This document shows positions 48,286 through 62,775 of a stretch of 64,000 nucleotides of DNA, piece after piece. Numbering within the stretch: position 1 is the stretch's first letter; the number at the start of each line of letters is the position of its first letter. The notes under the pieces were generated by a model that was given only the letters and a program-made list of their open reading frames with translations, did not search any database and was not told the origin of the DNA. The DNA is taken from the NCBI GenBank assembly GCA_034664845.1, contig JAXDGW010000010.1, forward strand, positions 58,936 through 122,935. Reading direction: 5' to 3'. The stretch is from Thermoanaerobaculia bacterium. Its GTDB lineage: Bacteria; Acidobacteriota; Thermoanaerobaculia; Gp7-AA8. The translations under genes were made by a program, and so were the position numbers.

Positions 48286-49384
48286 TCTCCCGAACCACCT
48301 CCGCCATCTGATCCTTCGTCAGCTCCGGGAAAACAGGAATGGCCAGGGTCCCCGCGGCAGCCAGATCGGAATTCGGAAACTGGCCGCGCCCCGAGACATT
48401 GTCCGCAAAGCATTCCTGCTGCGGCAATGTCAGTGGGTAGTAAATGTCGCACCCGATGCCGGCACTCTTGAGGTGCGCCATGACGCTGTCTCGCTTCCCA
48501 CCCGTGAACCGGATCACGTACTGGTTGTAGACGTGATGCCGCCGCGGCAGCTCGCGCGGCAGAATCACGCGGTCGCCGAGGGCAGCATCGGCGAAGAGCT
48601 CCGCGTAGGTCGCGGCGTTACGCCGGCGTCCTTCCGCCCAGGCATCGAGGTGGGCCAGCTTGATGTGGAGAATCGCCGCCTGCAGCGCGTCGATGCGGAA
48701 GTTCCCTCCGAGGTAGCGGTGGTAGTACTTCGGCCGCATTCCATGGACGCGAAAGTCGATGAGTCGCTCGTAGGTCTCCTCGTCTTCGCAGGTCACGGCG
48801 CCGGCATCTCCGAACGCGCCGAGGTTCTTGGATGGGAAGAAGGAGAAGGCGGCCATCGTCCCGAGCACACCGGCGCGGCGACCGTCGTATTCGGCGCCGA
48901 CAGCCTGCGCCGCATCCTCGATCACTGCCAGCTTGTGTTTTGCAGCGATGCGATTGATCTCGTCCATCTCCGCGCATTGACCGTAGAGATGGACCGGCAT
49001 GATCGCCTTCGTAGCCGGCGTGATCAGAGGCTCGATGACTTTCGGATCGAGGTTGTAGTCCGCCAGGTCGACGTCGGCGAACACGGGAGTCGCGCCGAGG
49101 CGGTCAACGACTCCGGCGGTGGCGAAAAAGGAGTAGGCGGGAACGATGACTTCGTCGCCAGGTCCGACGCCGAGAACCATGAGCGCGATGAGCAGCGCAT
49201 CGGTGCCCGACGACACGCCGACGGCGTGTTTGCTGTGGCAATAGGCAGCAAAGTCGCGCTCGAAATCGTCGACACGTTTGCCGAGGATGAAGTACTGCGA
49301 TTCGTAGACCTCGTTGGTGACGCGGAGGACTTCGTCGCGAATCGTGGCGTACTGAAGTTTCAGATCGAGTAATGGGACGGGCAT
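48266..49384 (-). CDS. DegT/DnrJ/EryC1/StrS-family PLP-dependent sugar aminotransferase
   Basis: PLLDLKLQY...ILGKRVDDFERDFAAYCH and SFFPSKNLGAFGDAGA (PLP Lys). The ATG at 49382-49384 (MPVPLLDL) is the likely start. Confidence 0.8.
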   Translation of the reverse strand: MPVPLLDLKLQYATIRDEVLRVTNEVYESQYFILGKRVDDFERDFAAYCHSKHAVGVSSGTDALLIALMVLGVGPGDEVIVPAYSFFATAGVVDRLGATPVFADVDLADYNLDPKVIEPLITPATKAIMPVHLYGQCAEMDEINRIAAKHKLAVIEDAAQAVGAEYDGRRAGVLGTMAAFSFFPSKNLGAFGDAGAVTCEDEETYERLIDFRVHGMRPKYYHRYLGGNFRIDALQAAILHIKLAHLDAWAEGRRRNAATYAELFADAALGDRVILPRELPRRHHVYNQYVIRFTGGKRDSVMAHLKSAGIGCDIYYPLTLPQQECFADNVSGRGQFPNSDLAAAGTLAIPVFPELTKDQMAEVVREIGKALG

Positions 49385-49424
49385 ATCGGGCGGAGTATAT
49401 CGAGCGGGTGAGAGAACCGTTTCA

Positions 49425-49478
49425 CGCGAAGCCGCGAAGAACACGAAGAAACTCTTTCGCGACTTCGCGACTTCGCGT
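49425..49478. repeat. Tandem-octamer palindromic element (CGCGAAGN x3 and inverted partner) in the DegT / secreted-protein divergent intergenic region
   Basis: cgcgaagccgcgaagaacacgaag ... ttcgcgacttcgcgacttcgcg. Three 8-nt units on each arm, and the arms are reverse-complementary. Confidence 0.55.
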
Positions 49479-49677
49479 GAGTGGTTCCCAACGCTTTCAC
49501 GACTCCCCCCGTATCACCAACGCCAAACGCACACGAATGCGGCCGCCATCGCGGTCGTACGTGTGCGTTTTGCGTATCGATCTAAACGGCTTTGTTTTCA
49601 ATGCTTTGACCGCATAAATTCATAGACGTTCTTTTTCGTGACGGCGTACCAGAGCGCAACTAACGAAGGAGAACCGA

Positions 49678-50748
49678 ATGAACATCAAACGCATCCTCAC
49701 CACCACCATCGCAGCACTCTTTCCACTCGTCGCCGCCGCCACCACACTCATCATCCCGGCCTCGGGGACGGTCCAGGGAGTCGACAACAGCCATTGGCAG
49801 ACGGAGCTGACGCTGCACAACACGAGCGCCAGCGCGATCGCCGCAACGCTCACGTTTCATGACGCCGCCGGCGCCGCGGAAACATCGATCGTCAACGTTC
49901 CGCCGCGTGCCACCGTCGCCCTTGCTGACGTCGTCGCCAACCGCTTCGGACGCCAGAGCGCGACGGGCGCGATCGAGATCACGTTCGACAGCGCCTTCGC
50001 CCAGAAGCTGAGCGTAGCCTCGCGGACATTCAACAAGTTACCGTCGGGCGAGTTCGGCCAGGACATTCCCGCCGTCGATGCGTCCACCGCAGCCGCGGCC
50101 GGCAACACCATCGTCCTCGGCGGACCATCCTCCACAGCCAGCGCGCGCTTCAACTTCGGCGTCTACGCGGTGAACGCCGCCGCCGTACGATGGGATCTCA
50201 TCCGCGCCGACGGCAGCATCGCCGCGTCGACGGAAGTCTCCTACGCGGCTGGCTCGCAGCGGCAGTACAACGACGGCGTCACGACTCTGTTCAACAGCAC
50301 CTCCGCGGACAACGACACGGTTCACGCAGTCGTTATGAGCGGGAAGGCCATCGCCTTTGGCAGCGTCGTGAACAATCAATCCGGCGATCCGACGTACGTG
50401 CCGGGACTGCTCGCCCGCTCCGATCTGCGCATCAACTTTGTGGGCGTCTCGTTCGGCGACACGGGAGCGATCGATGTGGCAGATGGCAATCATGACGGTG
50501 TGCTGGACCGCTCCGTCGACATCCAGACCGGTACGTGGCCGGTGGCCTTCCGTGTCGTCGTCAACTCGGCCAGCGTCGCGACGTTCGAGCTGGTGAATCC
50601 GCCAGCGGACGTGAAGTTCTTCGACGCACACGGTGGCATCGTCTGGACTCCGCGAGCATCGGCGGCAGGCACGAGCCCGACGCTCACGCTTCGCGTCACG
50701 GCGGACGGATCAACCGAGATCATCACGATTCCGGTCAATCTGCGGTAA
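49678..50748 (+). CDS. Secreted hypothetical protein (no recognisable family)
   Basis: Signal peptide MNIKRILTTTIAALFPLVAAATT. The body is Ala/Ser/Thr/Val-rich and beta-like. RBS ggagaaccgaATG. Followed by an intrinsic terminator. Confidence 0.55.
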   Translation: MNIKRILTTTIAALFPLVAAATTLIIPASGTVQGVDNSHWQTELTLHNTSASAIAATLTFHDAAGAAETSIVNVPPRATVALADVVANRFGRQSATGAIEITFDSAFAQKLSVASRTFNKLPSGEFGQDIPAVDASTAAAAGNTIVLGGPSSTASARFNFGVYAVNAAAVRWDLIRADGSIAASTEVSYAAGSQRQYNDGVTTLFNSTSADNDTVHAVVMSGKAIAFGSVVNNQSGDPTYVPGLLARSDLRINFVGVSFGDTGAIDVADGNHDGVLDRSVDIQTGTWPVAFRVVVNSASVATFELVNPPADVKFFDAHGGIVWTPRASAAGTSPTLTLRVTADGSTEIITIPVNLR

Positions 50749-50756
50749 TCCTCGCG

Positions 50757-50787
50757 AGGGACGGGGGGAAACTCTCGTCCCTTTTTG
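50757..50787 (+). terminator. Rho-independent terminator (agggacg-N12-cgtccct-TTTTT)
   Basis: A 7-bp GC stem immediately after the stop of 49678..50748, followed by a T5 run. A second 16-bp-stem hairpin at 50803-50863 lies between it and the convergent tyrS. Confidence 0.7.
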
Positions 50788-50872
50788 AATCAAAACCATG
50801 CACCACAGAGGCGCAGAGAGCACAGAGAAATGATTAAACTCTGTGACCTCTGCGCCTCTGTGGTTCAAATCA

Positions 50873-52090
50873 TCAGCCGAACACGATCTTCGCGAAGCGC
50901 CGCTTTCCGACCTTCAGCACATACGACTTTCCGCTCGACGCATCGAGCGTTGCGCGCGGGTCGCTCACCTTCGCATCATCGACGAGCACGCCGCCCTGCG
51001 CGATCACACGCTGCGCATCTTTGTTCGACTCGGAGAGACCGGCCTGCACGATGACTTTCGATAGCAATTGCGCCTCGGCCGCGGCAGGCAGCGTCGTCTC
51101 CTCGATCTCCGCCGGCGCCTGTCTCTCGCTGAACACCCTCCGAAACTCCGCCTCGGCGGCATCAGCAGCAGCGGCGTCGTCGTGAAAGTCGCGAATGATC
51201 GACTTGGCCAGCTCGCGCTTGGCCTCCATCGGATGCAGCGCTCCCGACTCGACTTCGCTCCGTTTCTCCGCGATCGCGGCGGGCGTCAAATCGGTGCAGA
51301 GCGTGTAGTACTTCCACATCAGATCGTCGGAGATCGACATCACTTTCCCGAAGATCGAGCCGGGCTCTTCGTGGATGCCGATGTAGTTGCTGAGCGACTT
51401 CGACATCTTCTCGATGCCGTCGAGTCCTTCGAGCAACGGCATGGTGATGACGACTTGCGGCTCGAGGTTGTACTCGCGCATCAGATCGCGGCCGACCAGC
51501 AGGTTGAAGAGTTGATCGGTTCCGCCCATCTCCACGTCGCACTTCAACGCGACCGAGTCGTATCCCTGCGCAAGTGGATAGAGAAGCTCGTGGATGGCGA
51601 TCGGTTGATGCGCGTCGAATCGTTTGCGGAAATCGTCCCGCTCGAGGATGCGCGCCAGCGTGTACTTCGCCGCGAGGCGCACCATTCCTTCCGCGCCGAG
51701 GGCGCCGAGCCACTCGGAGTTGAAACGTATCTCGGTCGTGGCCGGATCGAGGATTTTGAAGACCTGCTGCTTGTAGGTCTCGGCGTTCGCCAGCACTTCC
51801 TCTTTCGAAAGCGCCGGACGCGTAGCCTTCTTGCCGGTCGGATCGCCGATGAGTCCCGTGAAATCGCCGATCAGAAAAATGACGCGATGCCCGAGCTGCT
51901 GGAAGTGCTTCATCTTCCTGATGACGACGGTGTGCCCGAGGTGGATATCTGGCGCCGTCGGATCGAATCCGACCTTGATCGTCAGCGGCTTCCCGCGCGC
52001 CAGCTTGGTCTTGAGGTCCTTGCGTTCGATAAAGTCGACCGTCCCCTTGCCGAGAAAGTCGAGTTGTTCGTCGAGTGTCATGGCGCGCAT
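50873..52090 (-). CDS. tyrS: Tyrosine--tRNA ligase
   Basis: HIGH motif (PDIHLGH), KMSKS motif and a C-terminal S4 domain. 405 aa. Confidence 0.9.
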
Positions 52091-52102
52091 TGTAGCGGCG
52101 GT

Positions 52103-52290
52103 AGCGAGGTCGCGAGGTTTGCGGGGTCGCGCAGTGGTTGCTGGGTTGCTGAGTTGGCGAGTTGGCGTGTATGGGCGATCTTCGTCGCGCCGAGCTTATA
52201 GATGCCGACCGAGCAACCAAGCAACCTGGCAACTCAGCAACCCAAACCGCGACCCCGAGACCGCGAGCCCCCGCGACCGCATTTGACAGC
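52103..52290. repeat. ~190-bp imperfect palindromic element built from tandem octamers, in the tyrS/hisZ divergent intergenic region
   Basis: Left arm gcgaggtc|gcgaggtt|tgcggggt|cgcgcagt|ggttgctg|ggttgctg|agttggcg|agttggcg. Right arm caaccaag|caacctgg|caactcag|caacccaa|accgcgac|cccgagac|cgcgagcc|cccgcgac. The arms are reverse-complementary (for example ggggtcgcg/cgcgacccc and gttgctgagttg/caactcagcaac). Confidence 0.6.
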
Positions 52291-52467
52291 CACCGCTCCC
52301 GTCTCTACACTCCGCAAACTCAATGAGCACCCACGTCGCCCAGCAGCACCATCATCACCACAGCTAGGGGTGCCGTGCGCGCCCCGATCGGACGAGGGGC
52401 GCTCAGCGACGATACGTAGCCAACTGACCTGAACCTCTTCCGATTTCGAGAAGAGGTTTTTGAGTTT

Positions 52468-53349
52468 ATGGCCACGAAATCGAGATACCCGACAGGTGTA
52501 CGGCCGCTCTTGGCCGAGGAGACCGCGCGCCGCCGGCGGATGGAATCGCGCTTCGTCGATGCATTCACCGGCGCCGGCTTTGCCGAAGTCGTGCTTCCGA
52601 TCATCGATTATGTCGAGCCGTACGCAGCGCTGGTCGAGCCTGCGACGGCAAAGCAGAGCTATCGATTCGTCGACCGCGAAGGCGACCTGATCGCCATCCG
52701 CTCCGACTTCACGCCGATGCTGGCTCGCGCGCTCGCGCCTGCGATCACGCCCGAGGATCTGCCGATGCGGCTCTTCTACCGCGGCGATGTCATCCGCGTC
52801 GAAGCCTCCCGCCTCGGCGCCAACCGGGAGTTGTTCCAGATCGGCGCGGAGATCGTCGGCGACGACTCCATCGACGCCGATGTAGCGATGCTGCGGCTGG
52901 CGGCCGATCTCGTGCGCGCTCCCGGCGACGAGCCGACGGTCGTCTACAACGACGTCTCGATCGCTGCCGCGTTGATCGCGCAGTCGGCGCCTGTTCGTGA
53001 AGCGCTGGCGGCGAAGCGGATGACCGCGGGAGTGCCTGCTGCCTTACAAACAATCGTCGCGAAACTGATCTCCGGCGACGCGACGTTGAGCGATGTTGCG
53101 CCGTTCGCGCCTGAGGCGGCGGCGAGGTTGTCGGCGATCGAGGAAGCGGTCGCCGGCGACAGCATCTTCACGTTGCACCTCGACGACATCGAAGACAGCG
53201 GCTACTACACTGGCCTTCGCTTTCGCGTCTACGCCGGCGGCGCGCGCACGAAGGTTGCGCAGGGCGGGCGGTACGACAACCTCTACGAACGCTTCGGCCA
53301 GCGCGCCGCGGCGATCGGATTCACCTTCACGATCGACGACCTGGATTGA
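52468..53349 (+). CDS. hisZ: ATP phosphoribosyltransferase regulatory subunit
   Basis: HisRS-like catalytic core without an anticodon-binding domain. 293 aa. Directly precedes a short-form hisG. Confidence 0.85.
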   Translation: MATKSRYPTGVRPLLAEETARRRRMESRFVDAFTGAGFAEVVLPIIDYVEPYAALVEPATAKQSYRFVDREGDLIAIRSDFTPMLARALAPAITPEDLPMRLFYRGDVIRVEASRLGANRELFQIGAEIVGDDSIDADVAMLRLAADLVRAPGDEPTVVYNDVSIAAALIAQSAPVREALAAKRMTAGVPAALQTIVAKLISGDATLSDVAPFAPEAAARLSAIEEAVAGDSIFTLHLDDIEDSGYYTGLRFRVYAGGARTKVAQGGRYDNLYERFGQRAAAIGFTFTIDDLD

Positions 53350-53354
53350 ACGAT

Positions 53355-53963
53355 ATGCGCATTGCGATACCGAAAGGACGGCTGCAGGAGAAGGCGCTCG
53401 CCGTCTTCGCCAACGCCGGCTACGACGTGCCTTCCGAGGCGGATCTGAAGACGCGGAAACTCGTGTTCGAGCGCGGCGGCATCGAATGGATCTTCGTCAA
53501 AGATGGTGACGTACCGGTCTACGTCGAGCATGGCGCCGCCGACGCAGGCATCGCCGGACTCGATCAGATCCTCGAGCACGAATGCACCGCCTATCAGCCG
53601 GTCGAGTTTCCGTTCGGCCACTGCAGGATGATGCTGATCGCCGCGCCGGGCGCGCCTCCGCTGACGAAAGTGGCCACGAAGTATCCGCGCATCACGCGGC
53701 AGTTCCTCGACGCGCGCGGCGTTCACGCGGAGATCGTCCCGCTGAGCGGCTCCGTCGAGCTCGCGGCGGTGCTGAACCTCACGTCGCACGTCGTCGATCT
53801 CGTCGAGACCGGCGAGACCGTGCGCATTCACAAACTGGAGATGCAGGAAGTGGTCGCGGAGATTTCGCCGCGGCTGATCGTCGGAAAGAACTTCTATCGC
53901 ACGGAACCGAAGATGGTGAGAGAACTGATCAACAGAATTGAGGAGAAAGTCCTGTCATCCTGA
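53355..53963 (+). CDS. hisG: ATP phosphoribosyltransferase, short form
   Basis: MRIAIPKGRLQEKAL...ADAGIAGLDQILEH. About 200 aa with no C-terminal regulatory domain. The ATG at 53355 is preferred over the TTG at 53346. Confidence 0.85.
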   Translation: MRIAIPKGRLQEKALAVFANAGYDVPSEADLKTRKLVFERGGIEWIFVKDGDVPVYVEHGAADAGIAGLDQILEHECTAYQPVEFPFGHCRMMLIAAPGAPPLTKVATKYPRITRQFLDARGVHAEIVPLSGSVELAAVLNLTSHVVDLVETGETVRIHKLEMQEVVAEISPRLIVGKNFYRTEPKMVRELINRIEEKVLSS

Positions 53964-53991
53964 GGCGCCTTGGCGGCTCAGGATGACATCA
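53951..53991. repeat. Short palindromic element with TGTCATCCTGAG / CTCAGGATGACA inverted termini at the hisG-hisD junction
   Basis: cctgtcatcctgag-gcgccttggcgg-ctcaggatgacatc. The left arm encodes the last codons and stop of hisG. The same termini bound the 163-bp element at 59570..59732. Confidence 0.65.
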
Positions 53992-53999
53992 AAATCCAA

Positions 54000-55193
54000 A
54001 TGCGAGTCTTTAACGCAAACACCCCCGAATCCGACGCCGCCTTGCGCGCGATTCTCGATCGCCGCAGCGCCACGAACGAGAACGCGTTGCGCGTGGCCGA
54101 CGAGATGATCGCCGGCGTCCGCGCTCGCGGCGATGGGTATGTGGCCGAGGTCATCGCGAAGTTTGACGGCGTGACGATTGGGCCGGACGCGATCCGGACT
54201 ACGCCGCGCGAGGTCACGATTTCGACCGAGATGCAGGCAGCCATCGATCTCGCCATCGACCGCGTCGAAGCGTTCCACCGGCCGCAGCTTCCGCAGTCGT
54301 ACACGCTTGGCAATCTCGAGCATCGCGTGCGGCCGATCCGACGCGTCGGCGTCTATGTGCCGGGCGGACGCGCCGTTTACCTCTCGACGCTGATCATGAC
54401 CGCGGTCCCGGCGCGCATTGCGGGAGTCGACGAGATCGTCTGCATCACAACTTCTTCTGCTGCAGATCGCGACGAGCTTCATTACGTTTGCAACCGCCTC
54501 GGCGTCCGCGAAATCTATCGCTGCGGCGGCGCGGCAGGCGTCGCCGCGGCGGCGATCGGAACGCAATCTCTCGCTCGCGTCGACAAGATCGTCGGGCCGG
54601 GCAACGCCTACGTCACCGCCGCGAAAATGCGCCTCATCGGCGAGGTGGGAATCGACATGACCGCCGGCCCGACCGAGCTGGTGGTCATCGCCGACGACAC
54701 TGCCGACGCACGATTCGTCGTCGCCGATTTGCTCGCGCAAGCGGAGCACGGCGCCGATTCGGAAGTCATCCTTCTGACGACTTCGCAAACGCTGGCCGCG
54801 CAAATGCCGGAGCGCGCGCTCACATTCGTCGTCGCCTCGCTCGACGACGCGATCGTGATCGCCGACCGCATCGCGCCGGAGCATCTCTCCATTCACACCC
54901 GCGATGCGGCAGCGATCGGAGCGCGTGTCCAAAACTGCGGCGCCATCTTCTGCGGTCCGTTCGCGCCGCCCGCGGCCGGCGATTACGTCGTCGGGACGAA
55001 TCACGTGCTCCCCACCGCCGGCAGCGCGCGTTTCTTCTCCCCCCTCGGCGTCTACGATTTCGTCAAGCGCGCCAACGTCATCTCCCTCTCCGCCGAAGAG
55101 CTTGCGGAAATCAGCGATGCCGGCGAACGGATCGCCACGTTCGAAGGACTGCCCGCTCACGCCGCATCGATGGCCATCAGGAGGACCGCATGA
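54000..55193 (+). CDS. hisD: Histidinol dehydrogenase
   Basis: Full HisD with Zn/NAD motifs. The ATG at 54000 (MRVFNANTPES...) places ARGD at the position seen in E. coli HisD. The ORF track starts at the TTG at 53970. Confidence 0.9.
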   Translation: MRVFNANTPESDAALRAILDRRSATNENALRVADEMIAGVRARGDGYVAEVIAKFDGVTIGPDAIRTTPREVTISTEMQAAIDLAIDRVEAFHRPQLPQSYTLGNLEHRVRPIRRVGVYVPGGRAVYLSTLIMTAVPARIAGVDEIVCITTSSAADRDELHYVCNRLGVREIYRCGGAAGVAAAAIGTQSLARVDKIVGPGNAYVTAAKMRLIGEVGIDMTAGPTELVVIADDTADARFVVADLLAQAEHGADSEVILLTTSQTLAAQMPERALTFVVASLDDAIVIADRIAPEHLSIHTRDAAAIGARVQNCGAIFCGPFAPPAAGDYVVGTNHVLPTAGSARFFSPLGVYDFVKRANVISLSAEELAEISDAGERIATFEGLPAHAASMAIRRTA

Positions 55194-56230
55194 GTCGCGC
55201 TGTCGTCGCCGCCATGACCGCCTACACGCTGGAGTTGCGTGAGGCCGAGATCAAGCTGAATCAGAACGAGAGTCCGAGCGATTTTCCGCAGGAGCTCAAG
55301 GAGAGAGTTCTCGCCGAGATGGCGCGGCGCTCGTGGAACATCTATCCCGACTTCGAGTCGATGATGCTTCGCGGCGCGCTGGCGAAGGCGTACGGCTACG
55401 AAGCCGCGAACATTCTCGTCGGCAACGGCTCGAACGAGCTGCTTGCCGCGACGATCCCGACGTTTGTCGGCCCCGGAACGCCGGTCGTTTTTCCGAAGCC
55501 GACGTTTGCGCTGTACGAAAAACTCGTCGCCGTCGCCGGCGGCATCGCGCTGCCCGTCGCGGTCGATCCCTCGACGGGACTGCTGCCGCTCGACGAGATG
55601 CTCCGCGCCATCGCCCGCTGCGACGACGCTGTCGTCATCGTCTGTTCGCCGAACAATCCAACGGGCGGCGTGCTGCCGGACGGCGGGATCGACGCGCTCC
55701 TCGCCACCGGCGCGACCGTGCTTTTCGATCGCGCGTACGGCGATTTTGCCGAGGATGTGATGCCGGAGCTGAACGACCGGCTGGTGACGTTCTCGACGTT
55801 CTCGAAAGCGTGGGGAATGGCCGGATTGCGCGTCGGCTGGCTCGCGTCGACGGCATCGACCTGCCGCGAGATCCGCAAAGTGAAACTCCCCTACTCGCTG
55901 AACATCGTCAGCGAATACGCCGCCGCGACGGCGCTCGAGAACGGCGAGATCCGTACGCGCAACGTCGCCGCCACGATCGCCGAGCGCGCGCGGATGTTCG
56001 CGGCGATGCAGCAAATCGACGGCGTGACGCCGTTCCCATCGCGCTCGAACTTCATCGCGTTCACGACACAGCGCGACGCGAAGGAAGTCTTCAACGCGCT
56101 GCACGCCAGCGGCATCCTTATCCGCGACATCAGCGCCGCGGTCCCGAACGCGCTGCGCGTTTCGGTCGGGACGCCGGCACACAACGACGCATTCCTCACC
56201 GCTCTCGATCAAACAATGAAGCAGGAGTAA
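55190..56230 (+). CDS. hisC: Histidinol-phosphate aminotransferase
   Basis: Class II aminotransferase with PLP-Lys region FSTFSKAWGMAGLRVGW. The ATG at 55190 overlaps the hisD TGA (ATGA). The ORF track embeds it in a longer artefactual ORF, 54488..56230. Confidence 0.9.
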   Translation: MSRAVVAAMTAYTLELREAEIKLNQNESPSDFPQELKERVLAEMARRSWNIYPDFESMMLRGALAKAYGYEAANILVGNGSNELLAATIPTFVGPGTPVVFPKPTFALYEKLVAVAGGIALPVAVDPSTGLLPLDEMLRAIARCDDAVVIVCSPNNPTGGVLPDGGIDALLATGATVLFDRAYGDFAEDVMPELNDRLVTFSTFSKAWGMAGLRVGWLASTASTCREIRKVKLPYSLNIVSEYAAATALENGEIRTRNVAATIAERARMFAAMQQIDGVTPFPSRSNFIAFTTQRDAKEVFNALHASGILIRDISAAVPNALRVSVGTPAHNDAFLTALDQTMKQE

Positions 56231-56233
56231 CCG

Positions 56234-56824
56234 ATGCGACAAGCAACCATTACCCGCACCACCAAAGAAACCAACGTCGCGGTCACGCTCGATCTGGACG
56301 GCGACGGCACGCATTCGAAGATCGACACTCCCGTCGGTTTTCTGTCGCACATGCTCGACGTCATCGCGCGCCACGGCCGCGTCGATCTCGACATCGTCTC
56401 CACCGGCGACACGCACATTGACTATCACCACACGGTCGAAGACACCGCCCTCGTCCTCGGCGAAGCCTTCGCCCAGGCCCTCGGCGACAAGCGCGGCATC
56501 CGCCGTTTCGGCCACGCCTACGTTCCGCTGGACGAAGCGCTGGCGCGCGTCGTCGTCGACTTCGCGGGCCGGCCTTTTCTCGTCTTCGACGTCCCTTTCG
56601 ACCGCGAGATGCTCCTCATCCACAAGGATTTTCCCTTCGCACTCGTCGAGGAGTTCTTCAAGTCGTTCGCGAACAAATGCGCCTGCAACATCCACGTCGA
56701 TCTCATTCGCGGCCGCAACGGCCATCACGCCGCCGAGGCGATTTTCAAGGCGTTCGCGATCGCGCTGCGCGAGGCGAAGAGCGTGGTTGGGAGCGAGATT
56801 CCGAGCACGAAGGGTGTGATTTAA
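56234..56824 (+). CDS. hisB: Imidazoleglycerol-phosphate dehydratase
   Basis: TKETNVAVTLDLDG...HHTVEDTALVLG...HHAAEAIFKA. Monofunctional, 196 aa. Confidence 0.9.
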   Translation: MRQATITRTTKETNVAVTLDLDGDGTHSKIDTPVGFLSHMLDVIARHGRVDLDIVSTGDTHIDYHHTVEDTALVLGEAFAQALGDKRGIRRFGHAYVPLDEALARVVVDFAGRPFLVFDVPFDREMLLIHKDFPFALVEEFFKSFANKCACNIHVDLIRGRNGHHAAEAIFKAFAIALREAKSVVGSEIPSTKGVI

Positions 56825-56927
56825 CGAAAGGGGTCAGGTCGAAACCGAAACTGACGACGGCCATCGATGAACCACTCGCTCTACTCAAGCTCGTCGTCAG
56901 TTTCGGTTTCGACCTGACCCCTTTCGC
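56825..56927. repeat. 103-bp palindromic element (35-bp perfect arms) between hisB and hisH
   Basis: cgaaaggggtcaggtcgaaaccgaaactgacgacg - 33-nt loop - cgtcgtcagtttcggtttcgacctgacccctttcg. It starts 1 nt after the hisB stop, and hisH starts 7 nt after it ends. Confidence 0.7.
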
Positions 56928-56933
56928 TAACCC

Positions 56934-57530
56934 ATGATCACGACTCTCATCGATTCACCCGTCGCGAACGTCGCCAACATCGCTCGTGCGCTGCGCACTG
57001 TCGGCGCGGAGCTGGTTGTCACGCGCGATCCGGACGCGATTGCAGCGGCGGAGAAACTTGTCCTGCCGGGCGTCGGTTCCTTTATCGCCGCGATGCGATG
57101 GCTCGAAGAGAATCGCATCGATGCAGCGATCAGCACGGCGGTCAAACGCGGCGCGACGCTGCTCGGCGTTTGCGTCGGACATCAGCTCTTGTTCGATCTC
57201 TCGCACGAAATGGGGAGCACGCGCGGCCTCGGCTTGGTGCGCGGCGAAGTACACAAATACGAGGGCTCGCTTCCGGTACCGCAGATCGGATGGAATCGCG
57301 TGAAGGCCGCCGAGGGCTCGGCACTCTTCGACGGCGTCGAGAATGGCGTCTTCTACTTCGTCAACTCCTACGCGGCTTCGAACGCGCCCGACGAGATTGC
57401 GCGCGCTGATTACGGTAGGCCGTTCACCGCGGCGGTTCAACACGATCGCGTGTTCGGCGTGCAGTTTCATCCCGAAAAATCGTCGGCGGCAGGTCTGCGC
57501 GTCTTGAGGAACTTCGTGACATGGACGTAA
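56934..57530 (+). CDS. hisH: Imidazole glycerol phosphate synthase, glutamine amidotransferase subunit
   Basis: Class I GATase: GVCVGHQLL (nucleophile Cys) and FGVQFHPEKS. Confidence 0.9.
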   Translation: MITTLIDSPVANVANIARALRTVGAELVVTRDPDAIAAAEKLVLPGVGSFIAAMRWLEENRIDAAISTAVKRGATLLGVCVGHQLLFDLSHEMGSTRGLGLVRGEVHKYEGSLPVPQIGWNRVKAAEGSALFDGVENGVFYFVNSYAASNAPDEIARADYGRPFTAAVQHDRVFGVQFHPEKSSAAGLRVLRNFVTWT

Positions 57531-58987
57531 TCCCTTCGCTCGACCTCCTCGGCGGGCAAGTCGTCCGTCTGCTGCACGGCGATTTCGCGAACGTGACGGC
57601 GTACGGCGATCCGGAGAAGGTTCTCGATTCACTCGAGGTGCCACGCGGATCGCGGCTGCACATCGTCGACCTCGAAGCGTCGCGCAGCGGCAGACCGGTC
57701 GAACTGGAGGCCGTGCGGCGATTAGCGAAACGCGATCTGCGCGTTCAGGCCGGCGGCGGAATTCGCTCGCTCGCCGATGCGAAGGCGTGGATCGACGCCG
57801 GCGCCGAGAAGGTCGTGATCGGAACCGTCGCCGCAGACGCGCCCGAGGTCTTGCGTGAGATCGTCGCGGCGCTCGGCGCCGATCGCGTCATCGCCGCCGT
57901 CGATGTGCGCGACGGCGTCGTACGCGTGCACGGCTGGGAGCGTGACGCGGGCGCGACGCTCGCCGAGGTTCTCGAGCGCGTCGAATCCCTCGGCATCAGA
58001 GAAGCGCTCATCACCGACATCAACAAAGACGGCGCGATGCGTGGGCCGTCGTTCGCGCTTTACCGCTCGCTGCGCACGAAACTGCGCATCATCGCCAGCG
58101 GCGGCGTCTCCACCCTCGGCGATGTCGTCTCGCTGAGCCGCATCGGCAGCGTCGGCGCATGCGTCATCGGGCGCGCGCTGCTCGACGGCCGCGTGCAACT
58201 CGCCGAGGCGCGGGCGCGTGTGGCGACACCGAACGCGATTCCGGAGCGCGTCATCCCCTGCCTCGACGTGCGCGACGGCCGCGTGGTCAAGGGCATCAAC
58301 TTCGTCGATATCCGCGACGCCGGCGATCCGGTCGAATGCGCCGTGCGATACGAAGCCGAGGGCGCCGACGAGATGGTGATTCTCGACATCTCCGCGACCG
58401 ACGCGAATCGCACGACGGCTCTCGACACGGTGCATCGCGTCTCCGAATCGTTGTTCATCCCGCTCACCGTCGGTGGCGGCGTGCGGACGATCGAAGATTT
58501 TCGCGCGTTGCTCCGCGCCGGCGCGGACCGCGTGGCCATCAACACCGCCGCGCTTCGCAATCCGCGGCTCATCGCCGATTGCGCCGCCGAGTTTGGCGTG
58601 CAGGCCGTCGTGCTTTCGTGCGATGCCAAACGGATCGGCGATCACTACGAGGCGATGGTGCGCAGCGGCAAGGAATCGTCGAGCGTCGATGCCGTGGTGT
58701 GGTGCCGGCGCGCCGAGGAGCTGGGCACGGGCGAGATCCTGCTCACGTCGGTCGATCGCGATGGAACGAACGCGGGATACGACATCGAGCTGCTGCGCGC
58801 CGTCACCAGCGTCGTTCGCATCAGCGTCATCGCCTCGGGTGGCGCCGGCTCTCTCGAGCACTTCCGCGACGCCATCGAAGCCGGCGGCGCGCGCGCAGTG
58901 CTGGCGGCGTCGCTGTTTCATGACCGGCGGCTGTCGATTGGCGATGTGAAGCGCTTTCTGGCAAATGAAGGGATACCCGTACGATGA
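57521..58987 (+). CDS. hisA-hisF: In-frame fusion: ProFAR isomerase (HisA) + imidazole glycerol phosphate synthase cyclase subunit (HisF)
   Basis: Single 488-aa ORF. Residues 1 to about 233 are HisA ([17 protein letters not shown]...[20 protein letters not shown]). HisF follows directly (...[38 protein letters not shown]...). Across the junction ...gtg gcg aca ccg aac gcg att ccg gag cgc gtc atc ccc tgc ctc gac gtg... there is no stop codon and no ATG/GTG/TTG. Confidence 0.75.
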
Positions 58988-59568
58988 CTGATTTGAAATT
59001 CGACGCATCAGGCCTCATCCCCGCAGTCATTCAAGACGCGCGAACCGGCGAAGTTCTGACGCTCGCGTACATGAATCAGGCTTCGCTCGACCGCACGCGC
59101 GAGAGCGGTGAGACGTGGCTCTGGAGCCGCTCGCGCAAGGAGCTCTGGCACAAAGGCGCGACGTCAGGCAATACGCAGCGCGTCGTCGCCATCAGTGAAG
59201 ACTGCGACGGCGACGCGCTCGTCGTCAGCGTCATTCCGAACGGACCGGCGTGTCACACCGGCGCGCGATCGTGCTTCGCCGGCACGCCGCCGCGCACGCT
59301 CGATCGGCTGATGAACGTTCTGCGTGATCGGCGCGAAAAGCGTCCCGAGGGCTCGTACAGCGCGAAGCTGTTCAGCGGAGGACGAGGCAGGATTGCGAAA
59401 AAAATCGGCGAGGAGGCCACCGAGGTCGTCATCGCCGCGCTGAGCGAAACGCGCGAGCGCATGGTCAGCGAGATCGCCGATCTGGTCTTTCACGTCACCG
59501 TGCTGATGGCGGATGAAGGGATCGACTGGAGCGAGATTGAGGGGGAGCTGGCGGGCAGAGAAAGGTAA
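58984..59568 (+). CDS. hisIE: Bifunctional phosphoribosyl-AMP cyclohydrolase / phosphoribosyl-ATP pyrophosphatase
   Basis: HisI domain (LAYMNQASL...[12 protein letters not shown]...CDGDAL) followed by the HisE MazG-like domain. ATGA overlap with the hisAF stop. Confidence 0.9.
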
Positions 59569-59569
59569 A

Positions 59570-59732
59570 CCTGTCATCCTGAATCGCCGAAGGACACGAA
59601 GTGCCGGAGGACGATGAAGGACCCCCCGCGCATGTGCACGGTCGGGTGGTGGAACTGGTGACAACGCAATGCGCAGGGGGTCCTTCGACCGTCCTCCGGC
59701 ACTTCGTGTCCTGCGGCGGCTCAGGATGACAG
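59570..59732. repeat. 163-bp near-perfect palindromic element with TGTCATCCTGA terminal inverted repeats, downstream of hisIE
   Basis: Left arm cctgtcatcctgaatcgccgaaggacacgaagtgccggaggacgatgaaggaccccc. The right arm is its reverse complement (gggggtccttcgaccgtcctccggcacttcgtgtcctgcggcggctcaggatgacag). The central loop contains a further gcgcatg/catgcgc-type stem. It lies between the convergent hisIE and M23 peptidase genes. Confidence 0.7.
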
Positions 59733-59876
59733 CGTGGATGACAGGGGACGACTGCGCGGGTCATACGAGCGCTCGCACCACAACCCTTGACGAGCGACCG
59801 CCTGCCGAATCGCGAGGAGCTTCGGCGACAACGCGCGAAGCGCAACCAACCGACAACCGACAACGCGCGAAGCGCA

Positions 59877-60755
59877 CTAAAACGCGTTGAGGATGTACTC
59901 GAGCGGATTCACCGGGTTGTTGTTCAAGCGCACTTCGTAGTGGAGGTGCGGGCCGGTGGAGCGGCCGGTCGAGCCGACGTACGCGATGATGTCGCCGCGC
60001 TTGACGTGCTGGCCGGGCTTGGCCGCGTACGCCGAGAGGTGGCCGTAGCGCGTCGAGTAGCCGTATCCGTGCGAGAGATAGATGACGTTGCCGTAGCCGT
60101 TGGCCCATTCGGCCTTGACGACGATGCCGTCAGCGGGGGCGCGTACGGCCTGTCCGATGGCGGAAGAGATATCGACTGCGTTGTGAGTGCCGGCTTCACC
60201 GGTGAACGGATCGGAGCGGCCTCCGAAACCATCCGTCAGGATTCCGCGGACCGGCGCGATCGACGGCGTAGATGCCAGGAGCTGCGACTGCGCCACGAGC
60301 TTCTGTTCGAGGACTGACAGATCGCCTTCGATACGGCGGGAGCGGAAGGCCATCTTGTCGACGTCATCGCGATACGGATTGTCGCCCAGGTCTGAGGGGC
60401 GAAGGCCGCCGACGCCGCCCTGCTGCGCGCTGTCATCGAGGCTGCTGATTCCGGCGTAGATCGCCAGTTTGCGGGTGCGGTCTTCAACGGTGCGAAGCTG
60501 CCCGCGGAGTGATTCGACCGACTTGCTGAACTGTTCGTTGGCGGTCTGGAGGTCTTTGTTCTCGTGGCGAAGTTTGCTGAGCTCGTGCGTCTGCGAGAGC
60601 GAGGTGAAGTACTGGACGGAGAAGAAGGTCGATAGACAGAGAGAGGAGGTCAGGACCGACAGAACAGAGAAGAGCAGGCGGTGGGACACCTTCAACTTCC
60701 GGAACTTGGCCCGCGCATGCGGGACAAAGATGATTGTTGAATAGCGTTGATCCAT
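59877..60755 (-). CDS. M23-family (LytM/EnvC-like) peptidoglycan endopeptidase with N-terminal TM and coiled coil
   Basis: The C-terminal domain has HNAVDI...GYGNVIYLSHGYGYSTRYGHL...GSTGRSTGPHLHYEV (HxxxD / HxH zinc motifs). The N-terminal coiled-coil is EnvC/NlpD-like. Confidence 0.85.
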   Translation of the reverse strand: MDQRYSTIIFVPHARAKFRKLKVSHRLLFSVLSVLTSSLCLSTFFSVQYFTSLSQTHELSKLRHENKDLQTANEQFSKSVESLRGQLRTVEDRTRKLAIYAGISSLDDSAQQGGVGGLRPSDLGDNPYRDDVDKMAFRSRRIEGDLSVLEQKLVAQSQLLASTPSIAPVRGILTDGFGGRSDPFTGEAGTHNAVDISSAIGQAVRAPADGIVVKAEWANGYGNVIYLSHGYGYSTRYGHLSAYAAKPGQHVKRGDIIAYVGSTGRSTGPHLHYEVRLNNNPVNPLEYILNAF

Positions 60756-61121
60756 GCGTACTCCTTAACTCGGGATGGCCGACTGGACGACGGCAGTGAG
60801 GGGCGTATTCTATGGAAAGAGCGAGCGGAGTCAACGCAAAAACGGCGGTAAGTTGTGGGAGCACAAGCACTTCCGGGCGCGTTTTATGGTGTTACCCCAT
60901 ATTCGGGACGGATGGCTTAAGGTTTCCGTTTCATAACACAAATAACTTTATGTTGAGGTTGTCCTGGAGCGTGCGAAATGGGAGCGGATGCGCATCTGCA
61001 CCGGTCGTTGTGCATGTCCGCGTTCGCGCCGCTCACACTCCCCAGCCCACTCCCCGCATCCCGTGCTATCCTCCCGCCGCCCTTCCCGAACGGCGACAAA
61101 TCTCTCTAAAACAAGGTCTGT

Positions 61122-61658
61122 ATGAACGTCAAAAAACGGCTGCTCGACGGTCCTCGAATGAATCGCGCCATCCGGCGCATGGCCATTGAAATCCTCGAGA
61201 AAAACCGCGGGACCGATGACCTCATCATCGTCGGCATCCGCAGCCGAGGAGTTCCGATCGCCGAGAGGATGGCGAAGGAGATCGAGGAGATGGAAGGGCA
61301 TCCGGTCAGCTCCGGCATCCTCGACATCACCCTTTACCGCGACGACCTGACGACGATCGCGCCGCAGCCGGTCGTCAAGCCGACCAAGCTTCCCGAGCCG
61401 ATCGACGACAAGATCGTCGTCCTCGTCGACGACGTTCTCTACACCGGCCGCACGGTTCGCGCCGCGCTCGATGCGCTGATCGACTTCGGCCGTCCCAAGG
61501 CAGTCATGCTCGCCGTCCTCATCGATCGCGGCCACCGCGAGCTCCCCATCCACGCCGACGTGATCGGCAAGACAGTCCCCACCGATGCGCACGAAGTGAT
61601 CAAAGTGAAGCTGGTGGAGACGGATGGCGAGGACGAGGTTTTGATCATGGAGAAGTGA
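61122..61658 (+). CDS. pyrR: Bifunctional pyrimidine operon regulator / uracil phosphoribosyltransferase
   Basis: [16 protein letters not shown]...[22 protein letters not shown] (PRPP-binding motif). 178 aa. Upstream of pyrB. Confidence 0.9.
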
Positions 61659-61669
61659 TGTTTGCGGTT

Positions 61670-61730
61670 GCGAGGTCTCGGGGTTGCGCGGTAGCGCAGT
61701 AACACCGCGAGACCGCGAGACCGCGAGACC
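61670..61730. repeat. Tandem-octamer palindromic element (CGCGAGAC x3 and inverted partner) between pyrR and pyrB
   Basis: gcgaggtctcggggttgcgcggtagcgcagtaacaccgcgagaccgcgagaccgcgagacc. It may double as the pyr attenuator/terminator hairpin, with no U-tract. It belongs to the same family as the 49425..49478 and 52103..52290 elements. Confidence 0.55.
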
Positions 61731-61752
61731 GCGAGACCCCGCCACCGCCAAC

Positions 61753-62703
61753 ATGCGCGCCTCCACATCCTCGCTCCGCTCGAAAGACCTTCTCGGCATC
61801 GAGCAACTCCTTCCCGAAGAGATCGAGTTGATTCTCGATACCGCAGAGGGATTCAAGGAAGTGAGCGAGCGGCCGGTGAAGAAAGTGCCGGCGTTGCGCG
61901 GGCAACTCATCATCAATCTCTTCATGGAAGCGTCGACGCGGACGCGGGTCTCGTTCGAGATCGCGGAGAAACGCCTCTCCGCCGACACGCTCAACTTCAC
62001 CGCCTCCGGCTCCTCGGTCGAAAAAGGCGAAACGCTCATCGACACCGCCGAGAACCTCGTGGCGATGCATCCGGAGATGATCGTCATCCGGCATAAGTAT
62101 CCGGGCGCGCCGAAGATGCTGGCGGACCGGCTGCCGAACGTCTCGATCATCAACGCCGGCGACGGCGCGCACGAGCATCCGACGCAGGCTCTCCTCGACG
62201 CCTTCACCATCCGCGAGCGTCTCGGGCGGCTGGCCGGCGTCAACGTCTCGATCATCGGCGACATCGCTCACTCGCGCGTGGTGCGATCGAACATCCATCT
62301 GCTGACGAAGATGAAGGCCAACGTCACCGTGGCCGCGCCGCCGACGCTGCTGCCGGCGGAGATCGGAAAGATGGGCGTGCGCGTCGTTCACTCGCTCGAC
62401 GAAGCGGTGTCCGGGGCGGACGTCATCATGATGTTGCGCATCCAGCTCGAACGGCAGGGGAAGCTGTCGTTTCCGTCGCTGCGCGAGTACTACAACACGT
62501 TCGGCCTGACGCCGGAGCGGCTGAAGCGCGCCAACAGCGAGGCCATCATCATGCATCCCGGTCCGATGAACCGCGGCGTGGAGATCGCCAGCGATGTGGC
62601 GGATGATCCTCGGCGCTCAGTCATCCTGGAGCAGGTGACGAATGGTGTGGCGGTGCGGATGGCGGTGTTGTATCTGCTGGGGGGAGCGCATGGCAGTGAG
62701 TGA
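61753..62703 (+). CDS. pyrB: Aspartate carbamoyltransferase catalytic subunit
   Basis: STRTR (carbamoyl-phosphate binding), HPTQ and HPGP motifs. The ATG at 61753 ([19 protein letters not shown]) is the likely start within ORF 61684..62703. Confidence 0.9.
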
Positions 62704-62775
62704 AAAACCTTTTCATCCGCAGATGACGCAGATGTACACAGATCTGCGTTCATCTGCGACATCTGCGGATAAAAA

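What the first reader, a model, noticed from the sequence alone, without database searches (positions are those of the whole stretch)
49425..61730. Palindromic elements built from tandem 8-nt units (octamer periodicity) at three intergenic sites
The elements at 49425..49478 (cgcgaagN x3 versus the inverse), 52103..52290 (sixteen phased octamers such as gcgaggtc/gcgaggtt and caaccaag/caacctgg/caactcag/caacccaa) and 61670..61730 (cgcgagac x3 versus the inverse) share one design. Each arm is a short array of 8-bp units and the two arms are reverse-complementary. An 8-bp period does not match helical phasing. It is more reminiscent of protein-binding iterons or of slipped-strand amplification of a REP core. 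The largest copy sits in the tyrS/hisZ divergent promoter region. Another may act as the pyrR-pyrB attenuator stem.
Basis: seen in the sequence. Interest (0 to 1): 0.5.

Follow-up and report, generated by a model that had tools for sequence, protein, structure and literature searches.

The report
Hairpin repeats built from tandem heptamers/octamers
The three sites are real members of a large, fast-evolving class of dispersed intergenic hairpin repeats whose arms are short tandem arrays of 7-9-base units; they look like REP/MITE/rRNA-intervening-sequence-type selfish DNA, not gene-specific regulators.

Summary
All three sites are inverted repeats whose arms are tandem 8-nt units (period 8 is the best period in 5 of 6 arms; 0-4 of 2000 shuffles match). 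The window holds at least two more of the same design (50799-50867, 62710-62775).

The genome is a Thermoanaerobaculia acidobacterium. In 956 kb from relatives, 74% of intergenic tandem arrays have an inverted partner, and period 7 is commoner than 8.

The elements are almost entirely intergenic. They are frequent in co-directional and convergent spacers and rare in divergent ones. The G/purine-rich arm usually comes first.

They are hypervariable. Strains with identical PyrR carry different hairpins, or almost none, between pyrR and pyrB.

Families with conserved arm architecture (ttcAC-7mer-R-7mer-RR-7mer-aaa) recur at non-orthologous sites, in metagenome contigs of 36-75% GC and in viral contigs. 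A few enclose a small nuclease gene.

Best reading: dispersed REP/MITE/IVS-like palindromes that also change by unit slippage. Once transcribed they would form long stems that likely act as RNase III or exonuclease-barrier sites (inferred, not tested).

The iteron and pyrR-attenuator readings are not supported. Closest published analogues are the Xanthomonas GGGAATC convergent arrays and the heptamer-bearing stem of the Coxiella 23S IVS.

The parts
49422..49480 (.). Tandem-unit palindrome, CGCGAAG family (units spaced 8+9+7 nt). It lies in the divergent spacer between the DegT-type aminotransferase gene (48266-49384, -) and a 356-aa ORF (49678-50748, +).
   Evidence: I23; DNA fold -24 kcal/mol, z -5.0. 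The same arm architecture occurs in L085:3005-3110 at a different locus and in 25 viral-contig stretches.
50799..50867 (.). Tandem-unit palindrome, CACAGAG family (CCACAGAG-G-CGCAGAG-AG-CACAGAG and its inverse). It lies just after the tyrS stop codon, in a convergent spacer.
   Evidence: I4; z -9.5. The family recurs at non-orthologous sites in L003, L028, L083 and L084, in >=120 metagenome stretches and >=120 viral stretches.
52095..52290 (.). Large composite tandem-unit palindrome: outer GGTCGCGNG-type units and inner GTTGCTGR-type units, about 8 units per arm, with a loop of about 40 nt. It fills the space between the tyrS start and the his promoter -35 box.
   Evidence: I11; z -5.6. At the orthologous site this spacer is 11-236 nt long and 64-66% identical in the closest relatives, while the adjacent his leader is 94% identical.
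61659..61753 (.). Tandem-unit palindrome filling the pyrR-pyrB spacer. The right arm is (CGCGAGAC)x4 plus two degenerate units; the left arm is GGTTGCGA/GGTCTCGG/GGTTGCGC-type. The base of the stem pairs the bases after the pyrR stop codon with CAACAT, which includes the first two bases of the pyrB ATG.
   Evidence: TRF score 70; z -6.1. The site is polymorphic among contigs with identical PyrR.
62710..62775 (.). Tandem-unit palindrome, CGCAGATG family (9-10-nt spacing), filling the pyrB-pyrC spacer. The pyrC ATG follows directly.
   Evidence: I3; z -8.1. At this site other strains have GAATGTT heptamer hairpins or no spacer at all. The same family sits at a different locus in L083 and L089.
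56821..56930 (.). Long, near-perfect palindrome (39-nt arms, 97% complementary) between hisB and hisH. It is only weakly periodic (CGAAAC x2), so it is a related kind of spacer hairpin but not clearly a tandem-unit element.
   Evidence: I2; z -13. An ortholog is present in L060:5228-5299.
59847..59864 (+). Solitary short heptamer array (CAACCGA x2.6) with no inverted partner. Paired arrays of the same unit family occur in relatives.

Best explanation
The three sites, plus at least two more in the window, belong to a lineage-wide class of dispersed intergenic palindromes. Each arm is a head-to-tail array of 3-8 copies of a 7-9-nt unit, usually with the G/purine-rich arm first.

Shown here:
- They come in many sequence families.
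- Several families keep a conserved arm architecture (ttcAC-7mer-R-7mer-RR-7mer-aaa) at non-orthologous sites, in distantly related genomes and in viral contigs. They therefore spread as units, like REP, MITE or rRNA-intervening-sequence (IVS) elements.
- Their unit number and composition also change locally.
- They sit in spacers downstream of genes and inside operons, closer to the upstream stop codon than to the downstream start codon.
- They are replaced or lost between close relatives far faster than neighbouring non-coding DNA.

Inferred, not shown:
- Local change is by replication slippage, with arm-to-arm correction by template switching.
- When transcribed, each element forms a 24-60-bp stem. 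By established knowledge of long dsRNA stems, REP elements and 23S IVS stems, such a stem should be an RNase III substrate and/or a 3'-exonuclease barrier. Its effect on the host would then be generic (segmental mRNA stability or processing, possibly damping termination or re-initiation at the junction), not a gene-specific switch.
- What mobilises them is unknown.
For: Reality and excess over chance.

Lineage-wide class: 54 strict elements in 803 kb from close relatives and 10 in 404 kb of other Acidobacteriota. Of 150 intergenic tandem arrays, 111 have an inverted partner; periods are 7:99, 8:33, 9:8.

Location: 79 of 82 are intergenic. Density is 1.12 per kb of co-directional spacer, 0.72 convergent and 0.21 divergent. 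Stop codon to first repeat seed is a median 9 nt; last seed to start codon is 19 nt (p=4e-4); the repeat span covers 67% of the spacer.

Hypervariability.

Slippage-type change: window x4 against L082 x2 units.

Dispersal: the CACAGAG, CGCGAAG and CGCAGATG families occur at non-orthologous loci with conserved termini and three units per arm. The CACAGAG arm is in >=120 metagenome stretches of 36-75% GC and >=120 viral stretches, several per contig. The CGCGAAG arm is in 25 and GAATGTTx3 in 43 viral stretches. The two linker-type arm families share one consensus. One relative has four copies of a ~200-nt repeat containing such a hairpin within 15 kb.

Polarity: the 5' arm is G-rich in 61 elements and C-rich in 6 of 78. 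The partner arm lies downstream in 58 and upstream in 13 of the metagenome arms.

Published analogues: Xanthomonas GGGAATC arrays occur as 70-75 convergent inverted pairs with strain-variable length (PMC4692102). The Coxiella 23S IVS stem carries 2-3 tandem GACAGAT heptamers, variable among strains, and RNase III cuts at the first repeat (PMC4990558).
Against: No transposase, target-site duplication or clean empty/filled junction was found, so mobility is inferred from distribution alone.

Loops are not conserved between copies of a family, which is unusual for a transposed unit.

The perfect CGCGAGAC x3 array of site 3 has no match in viral contigs, so some unit variants are private and could have arisen in place.

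There is no sense/antisense difference in RNA folding energy (25 against 27, p=0.39), so nothing shows selection on the RNA of one strand.

Two independent samples carry an identical copy of the large element, so it is not hypermutable on short timescales.

The RNA-level role has no expression data behind it. Gene calls in the loci come from my own codon-usage caller, checked against Pfam only in the window.
Confidence: 0.6

Rival explanations
1. Purely local origin. Each hairpin grew where it sits from a short palindrome or terminator. Slipped-strand duplication of a unit in one arm was copied into the other arm by quasipalindrome template switching, with no transposition.
For: Unit number differs between close strains at the same site, and one arm can carry a run of identical units that the other arm lacks (window site 3 against L082). 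There are 40 unit groups among 82 elements. The perfect CGCGAGAC x3 array is absent from viral contigs. Loops differ between copies. No target-site duplication was seen.
Against: The same arm, down to the 8+9+7 spacing and the ttcAC lead, recurs at non-orthologous sites, in genomes of 36-75% GC and in viral contigs. Independent slippage would not reproduce that. Multi-copy repeats with conserved loops occur in L049.
Confidence: 0.15
2. Gene-specific regulatory RNA structures: a PyrR-dependent attenuator between pyrR and pyrB, a tyrS or his leader element, or intrinsic terminators.
For: The elements lie in transcribed spacers. The base of the site 3 stem includes part of the pyrB start codon. 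The hairpins are very stable.
Against: The elements are not conserved among contigs with identical PyrR: spacers range 31-176 nt and hold unrelated sequences. The tyrS/his hairpin is absent in L003 and tiny in L004. There is no Rfam PyrR, T-box or His_leader match at E<=5. No T-run follows the stems, whereas the window does contain canonical T-run terminators. The his operon has its own leader-peptide attenuator downstream of the hairpin.
Confidence: 0.05
3. DNA-level protein-binding arrays (iteron-like or nucleoid-protein sites) read as double-stranded direct repeats on both sides of a dyad.
For: The layout is regular short direct repeats in inverted blocks. Arm consensus is shared across two families. 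There is a strand-independent polarity.
Against: Unit sequences are highly diverse within one lineage. The elements are rare in divergent promoter spacers and common after genes. Presence or absence varies among close strains at housekeeping operons. Nothing links them to a replication origin or plasmid.
Confidence: 0.05
4. Stems of IVS-type selfish elements that are moved or targeted by small nucleases (GxxExxY PD-(D/E)xK, GIY-YIG, S23p-type cargo). The ORF-less copies in this window would be their miniature derivatives.
For: CACAGAG arms enclose GxxExxY genes in L099 and L103 and a GIY-YIG gene in L105. Six of 7 GxxExxY-like ORFs in the motif-selected loci have tandem seeds within 200 nt. 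The Coxiella IVS (S23p ORF) has tandem heptamers in its stem.
Against: Only about 3 of 102 paired arms carry such an ORF. The loci were selected for the motif, so the adjacency statistic is biased. The Uma2 'cargo' in L021 proved to be a resident syntenic gene. No four-helix-bundle ORF was found with an approximate probe written from memory (a weak negative). No nuclease gene is linked to elements in the window.
Confidence: 0.15

Closest known systems
Xanthomonas GGGAATC heptamer arrays in convergent inverted pairs (Rehm et al. 2015, PMC4692102)
   Same: Tandem heptamers occur as two arrays on opposite strands, G-rich array first, able to form stem-loops. They are intergenic, mostly at the same loci in related strains, and differ in length between strains.
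   Different: Xanthomonas has one G-quadruplex-prone unit genome-wide. Here there are dozens of unit families without G-tracts, periods of 7-9, and some families with fixed 1-nt and 2-nt purine linkers.
23S rRNA intervening sequences (IVS), e.g. Coxiella burnetii (PMC4990558)
   Same: A selfish insertion bordered by inverted repeats that form a long stem. The 5' part of the Coxiella stem holds 2-3 tandem purine-rich heptamers (GACAGAT), variable among strains, and the stem is cut by RNase III. The unit resembles CACAGAG / CACAGAT / CGCAGATG here.
   Different: IVSs sit in rRNA helices and carry an S23p ORF. The window elements sit in mRNA spacers, have short loops and no ORF. RNase III cleavage was not tested here.
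REP/BIME elements of enterobacteria and pseudomonads (REPINs)
   Same: Short, multi-copy intergenic palindromes found inside operons and after genes and rare in divergent promoters. From my own knowledge, they stabilise upstream mRNA and can affect translation termination when close to a stop codon.
   Different: There is no conserved GTAG/CGTC head. The arms are tandem arrays. Many families coexist. No RAYT transposase link was established.
Bacterial MITEs (Correia/NEMIS, ERIC, RUP and others)
   Same: Non-autonomous dispersed repeats with terminal inverted repeats and a variable interior, which fold as RNA hairpins when co-transcribed. The ~200-nt repeat family in L049 behaves like one.
   Different: No target-site duplication and no parent IS with matching ends was found. 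The terminal repeats are internally periodic.
Direct heptamer arrays: cyanobacterial STRR and Beggiatoaceae TAACTGA repeats (PMC4679880)
   Same: Intergenic tandem heptamers, with a non-random position relative to genes.
   Different: Those are direct arrays; only one inverted case was seen among 170 sets. Here 74% of arrays have an inverted partner.

Membership tests
REP / REPIN | Imperfect palindrome of 20-40 nt present in many copies in intergenic DNA | tested here: inconclusive
   The elements are palindromic and intergenic, and families recur across genomes. But they are 55-195 nt long, and copy number within this genome could not be counted from a 64-kb window.
REP / REPIN | Conserved GTAG or CGTC tetranucleotide at the head of the stem | tested here: not met
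   Read from the sequence: the stems at 49422, 50799, 61659 and 62710 start with CACG, CCAC, ATGT and CATC. Only the 52095 element is preceded by GTAG. The family consensus lead is ttcAC.
REP / REPIN | Cognate RAYT (Y1 transposase) gene flanked by the same repeats | not tested
   This needs a whole-genome search. The window and loci were not screened for PF01797.
MITE | Terminal inverted repeats around a variable interior, in multiple dispersed copies | tested here: met
   Arm-to-arm distance ranges from 4 to 729 nt around conserved arms. Copies lie at non-orthologous loci. L049 has four copies in 15 kb.
MITE | Target-site duplication and a parent transposon with matching ends | tested here: inconclusive
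   No duplication is evident at the filled/empty comparisons for pyrB-pyrC and tyrS-his. No transposase was found. Only a few sites were examined.
PyrR-binding transcription attenuator | Conserved PyrR-binding stem-loop (Rfam RF00515) | tested here: not met
   No match appears in 49000-63000 even at E<=5.
PyrR-binding transcription attenuator | Terminator stem followed by a U-run | tested here: not met
   No T-run follows the stem at 61659-61753.
PyrR-binding transcription attenuator | Conservation together with PyrR | tested here: not met
   Ten contigs with identical PyrR carry unrelated spacers of 31-176 nt.
Iterons | One repeated sequence, usually 17-22 bp, bound by an initiator at a replication origin | tested here: not met
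   Units are 7-9 nt and fall into about 40 sequence groups. They are scattered in housekeeping operons with no origin context.
Intrinsic (Rho-independent) terminator | GC-rich stem directly followed by a T-run on the transcribed strand | tested here: not met
   No T-run follows the stems at sites 1-3. The only T-run hits near them are a short internal stem within the right arm of site 2 and part of the 50799 element. Canonical terminators do exist elsewhere in the window (50759-50790; his attenuator).
23S-IVS-like element | Long terminal stem that is an RNase III substrate | not testable with these tools
   Stems of 24-60 bp are predicted. Cleavage needs RNA-end mapping or an in-vitro assay.
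23S-IVS-like element | Small ORF in the loop and/or location in rRNA helices | tested here: not met
   None of the window elements has an ORF in the loop or lies in rRNA. A few metagenome copies do carry GxxExxY or GIY-YIG ORFs.

The most novel reading that the evidence does not exclude
There may be an unrecognised, very widespread superfamily of 'heptamer-arm' hairpin elements with the consensus arm ttcAC-(C[AG]C[AG][AG]AG)-R-(7mer)-RR-(7mer)-aaa and the purine-rich arm first. It would span bacteria of 36-75% GC and phage contigs, and would unite ORF-less spacer hairpins, GxxExxY/GIY-YIG-carrying copies and the tandem-heptamer stems of 23S rRNA intervening sequences. Such elements would spread by a structure-directed mechanism (hairpin-targeting nuclease or template-switch/repeat-addition repair) and not by a sequence-specific transposase, and would be processed by RNase III wherever they are transcribed.
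Probability: 0.2. Interest if true: 0.75.

Novelty: new variant of a known kind. Interest (0 to 1): 0.55.

Why it matters
Intergenic palindromic repeats (REP, MITE, IVS) are known, but how they spread is unclear for many of them. A class whose arms are tandem 7-9-nt arrays, with a fixed polarity, many families, rapid turnover at housekeeping operons and a distribution reaching phage contigs, gives a tractable case. It would allow study of how hairpin DNA is generated, moved and tolerated, and of how it reshapes operon spacers in abundant but poorly studied soil Acidobacteriota.

There is also a practical side. These elements confound gene calling by creating spurious small ORFs, confound terminator and sRNA prediction, and complicate assembly and strain typing. 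Their strain-level variability could serve as a typing marker.

For this window specifically, the result removes two tempting but wrong annotations: a pyr attenuator and promoter iterons.

Tried and rejected
- Rfam. At gathering thresholds on the whole window there were no hits. At E<=5 on 49000-63000 there were only weak generic miRNA-precursor matches on the hairpins, and no PyrR, T-box or His_leader.
- G·U asymmetry test for RNA-level selection. Sense and antisense folding energies in 52 co-directional elements show no difference.
- My first hairpin scanner (local alignment of tiles against their reverse complement). It double-counted through the centre and missed mixed 8/9 spacing, so I dropped it.
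- First gene callers. They picked antisense ORFs in the his and pyr operons. I retrained the caller and checked it against Pfam.
- 'The stem starts at the stop codon' (35 of 51 within 3 nt). This was inflated by folding the spacer alone. With 30-nt flanks the distribution is broad. I kept only the structure-free distances.
- Uma2 endonuclease as cargo of an element in L021. Rejected: it is a resident syntenic gene in about 12 relatives that lack the arms.
- Four-helix-bundle (S23p) ORFs near the arms. A probe written from memory found none, which is only a weak negative.
- The search for related loci with GxxExxY in viral contigs returned nothing usable.
- Literature searches for the arm sequences themselves found no paper. 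Searches for Acidobacteria plus REP or tandem-repeat hairpins found nothing specific.
- Intrastrand triplex motifs (PMC4666352) are not the same structure.


Full report
**Observation**

I read the three sites directly. Site 1 (49422-49480) is CACGCGAAG-C-CGCGAAG-AA-CACGAAG, a 6-nt loop, then CTTTCGCGA-CTTCGCGA-CTTCGCGTG. Site 2 (52095-52290) has about eight units per arm. The outer units are GGTCGCGNG-like and the inner units are GTTGCTGR-like, and they are mirrored by CAGCAACC-like and CCGCGACC-like units in the other arm. Site 3 (61659-61753) has (CGCGAGAC)x4 plus two degenerate units, facing a GGTTGCGA/GGTCTCGG/GGTTGCGC arm.

Tandem Repeats Finder reports period-8 arrays at all three sites, with the best score of 70 at 61704-61738. 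The inverted-repeat search recovers the arms. Period 8 is the best ungapped autocorrelation period in five of six arms, and 0-4 of 2000 shuffles reach the observed value. As single-stranded DNA the three sites fold with z-scores of -5.0, -5.6 and -6.1.

I built a strict detector: a tandem 6-mer at period 6-12 plus its reverse complement in tandem within 250 nt. It finds four clusters in the window against 0.1 in dinucleotide shuffles, and none in 50 kb around the E. coli his operon.

It is also incomplete. Elements at 50799-50867 (CACAGAG units) and 62710-62775 (CGCAGATG units) share the design with 8-10-nt spacing.

**Context**

Pfam assignments give this map:
- DegT aminotransferase, 48266-49384 (-)
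- site 1
- 356-aa ORF (+)
- canonical terminator, then the CACAGAG hairpin
- tyrS, 50873-52090 (-)
- site 2
- his promoter TTGACA-17-TACACT at 52283-52311
- leader peptide MSTHVAQQHHHHHS at 52324-52368, followed by a T-run attenuator
- hisZ, hisG, hisD, hisC, hisB
- hairpin 56821-56930
- hisH, hisAF, hisIE
- pyrR, site 3, pyrB, the CGCAGATG hairpin, pyrC

The tyrS protein places the window in class Thermoanaerobaculia of the Acidobacteriota, with 95% amino-acid identity to two soil MAGs.

**A lineage-wide class**

In 803 kb around tyrS from 56 close relatives the strict detector finds 54 elements. In 404 kb from other Acidobacteriota it finds 10. With the later pyrR loci added (956 kb from 66 loci), 150 intergenic tandem arrays have three or more copies. 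Of these, 111 (74%) have an inverted partner within 250 nt. The periods are 7 (99 arrays), 8 (33) and 9 (8). The octamer period is therefore a local feature, and heptamers are the norm.

Of 82 elements, 79 are intergenic. Their density is 1.12 per kb of co-directional spacer, 0.72 per kb of convergent spacer and 0.21 per kb of divergent spacer. In co-directional spacers the first repeat seed lies a median 9 nt after the upstream stop codon. The last seed lies a median 19 nt before the downstream start (p=4e-4). The repeats span two thirds of the spacer.

An earlier fold-based estimate put the stem right at the stop codon. It was inflated by folding the spacer alone, and I do not rely on it.

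The palindromes have a strand-independent polarity. The 5' arm is G-rich in 61 elements and C-rich in 6 of 78; it is purine-rich in 44 against 13.

**Evolution**

At the tyrS/his site the spacer between the his -35 box and the conserved tyrS TACAAT box ranges from 11 nt (L003, no hairpin) to 236 nt. In the two closest relatives the adjacent 200 nt of his promoter and leader is 94% identical to the window, while the hairpin spacer is 64-66% identical.

Ten contigs encode a PyrR protein identical to the window's. Their pyrR-pyrB spacers fall into these groups:
- identical to the window (L087)
- the same family with two fewer perfect units (L082)
- a 172-176-nt GTTGCTRA-type hairpin (L081, L085)
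- a GTGGYCA heptamer hairpin (L083, L084)
- a different degenerate spacer (L089)
- a 31-nt remnant (L086, L088, L090)

The pyrB-pyrC spacer is likewise a CGCAGATG hairpin, a GAATGTT heptamer hairpin, or absent with the genes overlapping.

Two other samples with identical TyrS carry an identical copy of site 2. Turnover therefore happens at the species or subspecies scale, not within a clone.

**Dispersal**

The 82 elements fall into about 40 unit groups, but several families recur at non-orthologous loci with the same termini and three units per arm:
- CACAGAG family: window tyrS 3' end, L003 hisG/hisD junction, L028, L083, L084
- CGCGAAG family: window site 1 and L085
- CGCAGATG family: window pyrB-pyrC, and L083/L089 between other genes

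One relative has four copies of a ~200-nt repeat containing a GAATGCA hairpin within 15 kb.

Those contigs range from 36 to 75% GC. It also occurs in at least 120 viral-contig stretches, often several per contig. The CGCGAAG arm with the same 8+9+7 spacing is in 25 viral stretches and GAATGTTx3 in 43. The perfect CGCGAGACx3 array is in none.

Both linker-type families share the consensus ttcAC-7mer-R-7mer-RR-7mer-aaa. Arm-to-arm distance runs from 4 to more than 700 nt, so the arms behave as terminal inverted repeats around a variable interior.

In three cases that interior is a small nuclease gene: GxxExxY/PDDEXK_3 in L099 and L103, and GIY-YIG in L105. An apparent Uma2 cargo in L021 is a resident syntenic gene, and I reject it.

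**What it is not**

- Rfam gives nothing at gathering thresholds. At E<=5 there are only weak generic miRNA-hairpin matches, with no PyrR site, T-box or His leader.
- No T-run follows the stems at the three sites, although canonical terminators exist in the window.
- The pyrR-pyrB hairpin is not conserved with PyrR.
- The diversity of units argues against a single sequence-specific DNA binder.
- Sense and antisense RNA folding energies do not differ (25 against 27, p=0.39), so no strand-specific RNA selection is visible.

**Mechanism**

Shown: the elements are dispersed families with conserved arms. Unit numbers change locally. They sit 3'-proximal in spacers. They turn over rapidly. They have a fixed polarity.

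Inferred: unit changes arise by replication slippage, and the arms are kept complementary by template switching between them. Both are established mutational routes for tandem repeats and quasipalindromes.

Also inferred: when transcribed, the 24-60-bp stems should be RNase III substrates and/or 3'-exonuclease barriers. This is what is known for REP elements (from my own knowledge) and for 23S IVS stems. The effect on the host would be generic, not gene-specific.

At site 3 the base of the stem pairs the bases just after the pyrR stop codon with CAACAT, which includes the first two bases of the pyrB ATG. This could couple or damp pyrB initiation. It is speculative, and the variation among strains argues against a required role.

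**Comparison with known systems**

The closest published cases are two. The first is the Xanthomonas GGGAATC heptamer arrays, which occur as 70-75 convergent inverted pairs of strain-variable length (PMC4692102). The second is the Coxiella 23S IVS. The 5' part of its stem holds two or three tandem GACAGAT heptamers that vary among strains, and RNase III cuts at the first repeat (PMC4990558).

REP/BIME and MITEs are the broader kinds. The REP head motif is absent, and neither a RAYT nor a target-site duplication was established. Direct heptamer arrays (STRR, Beggiatoaceae TAACTGA) lack the inverted partner.

I found no paper describing these elements in Acidobacteriota or quoting the arm sequences. 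The literature search covers open-access text only.

**Verdict**

The feature is real and is a member of a large class. The best description is a new variant of REP/MITE/IVS-type palindromic repeats, built from tandem 7-9-nt units. The 'iterons' and 'pyr attenuator' ideas are not. Interest is moderate (0.55). It would be higher if the broad heptamer-arm superfamily and its link to IVSs and small nucleases hold up.

Noticed in passing
window 52283-52467: A complete his attenuator. It has a consensus-like promoter (TTGACA-17-TACACT, 52283-52311), a 14-codon leader peptide MSTHVAQQHHHHHS with five consecutive His codons (52324-52368), and a T-run terminator hairpin AACCTCTTC...GAAGAGGTTTTT just before hisZ. 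It is conserved in relatives but not matched by Rfam His_leader.
   Followed up: partly
window 52079-52094 (- strand): tyrS appears to be leaderless. A TACAAT box lies 6-8 nt upstream of the ATG that begins MTLDE (52081), and this arrangement is conserved in all close relatives examined. The first ATG of the ORF (52090) lies inside the TACAATG. The large hairpin sits where a -35 box would be.
   Followed up: partly
window 53953-53988 and 59571-59732; also 38 hits in 972 kb of relatives: A second, non-periodic palindromic repeat family with GTCATCCTGAG...CGAAGGA(T/C)C termini. One copy straddles the hisG stop and hisD start; another follows hisIE.
   Followed up: partly
window 50759-50790: A canonical intrinsic terminator (GGGACGGGGGGAAACTCTCGTCCCTTTTT) for the 356-aa ORF, immediately next to the CACAGAG hairpin. 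The genome therefore uses ordinary T-run terminators as well.
   Followed up: no
L099:943-1711, L103:292-1010, L105:414-1347: CACAGAG-type arms enclose small nuclease genes: GxxExxY/PDDEXK_3 in L099 and L103, and GIY-YIG in L105.
   Followed up: partly
L117:1190-1592 and L158:30-300: The CACAGAG arm also heads tandem arrays of longer units: 127 nt x3 closed by one inverse arm in L117, and units of about 70 nt x3 in L158.
   Followed up: no
metagenome loci L093-L172: When the partner arm lies upstream ('pyrimidine-first'), the gap is narrowly 20-28 nt in 12 of 13 cases. Purine-first pairs have gaps of 4-243 nt. The upstream cases may be junctions between two adjacent elements.
   Followed up: no
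window 23964-24622: A 294-nt tandem repeat (2.2 copies, 76% match) lies inside a large minus-strand ORF (23741-26245). It is presumably a repeated protein domain.
   Followed up: no
window 59800-59876: A direct repeat ACGCGCGAAGCGCA x2 brackets a short CAACCGA heptamer array in the spacer after the his operon.
   Followed up: no
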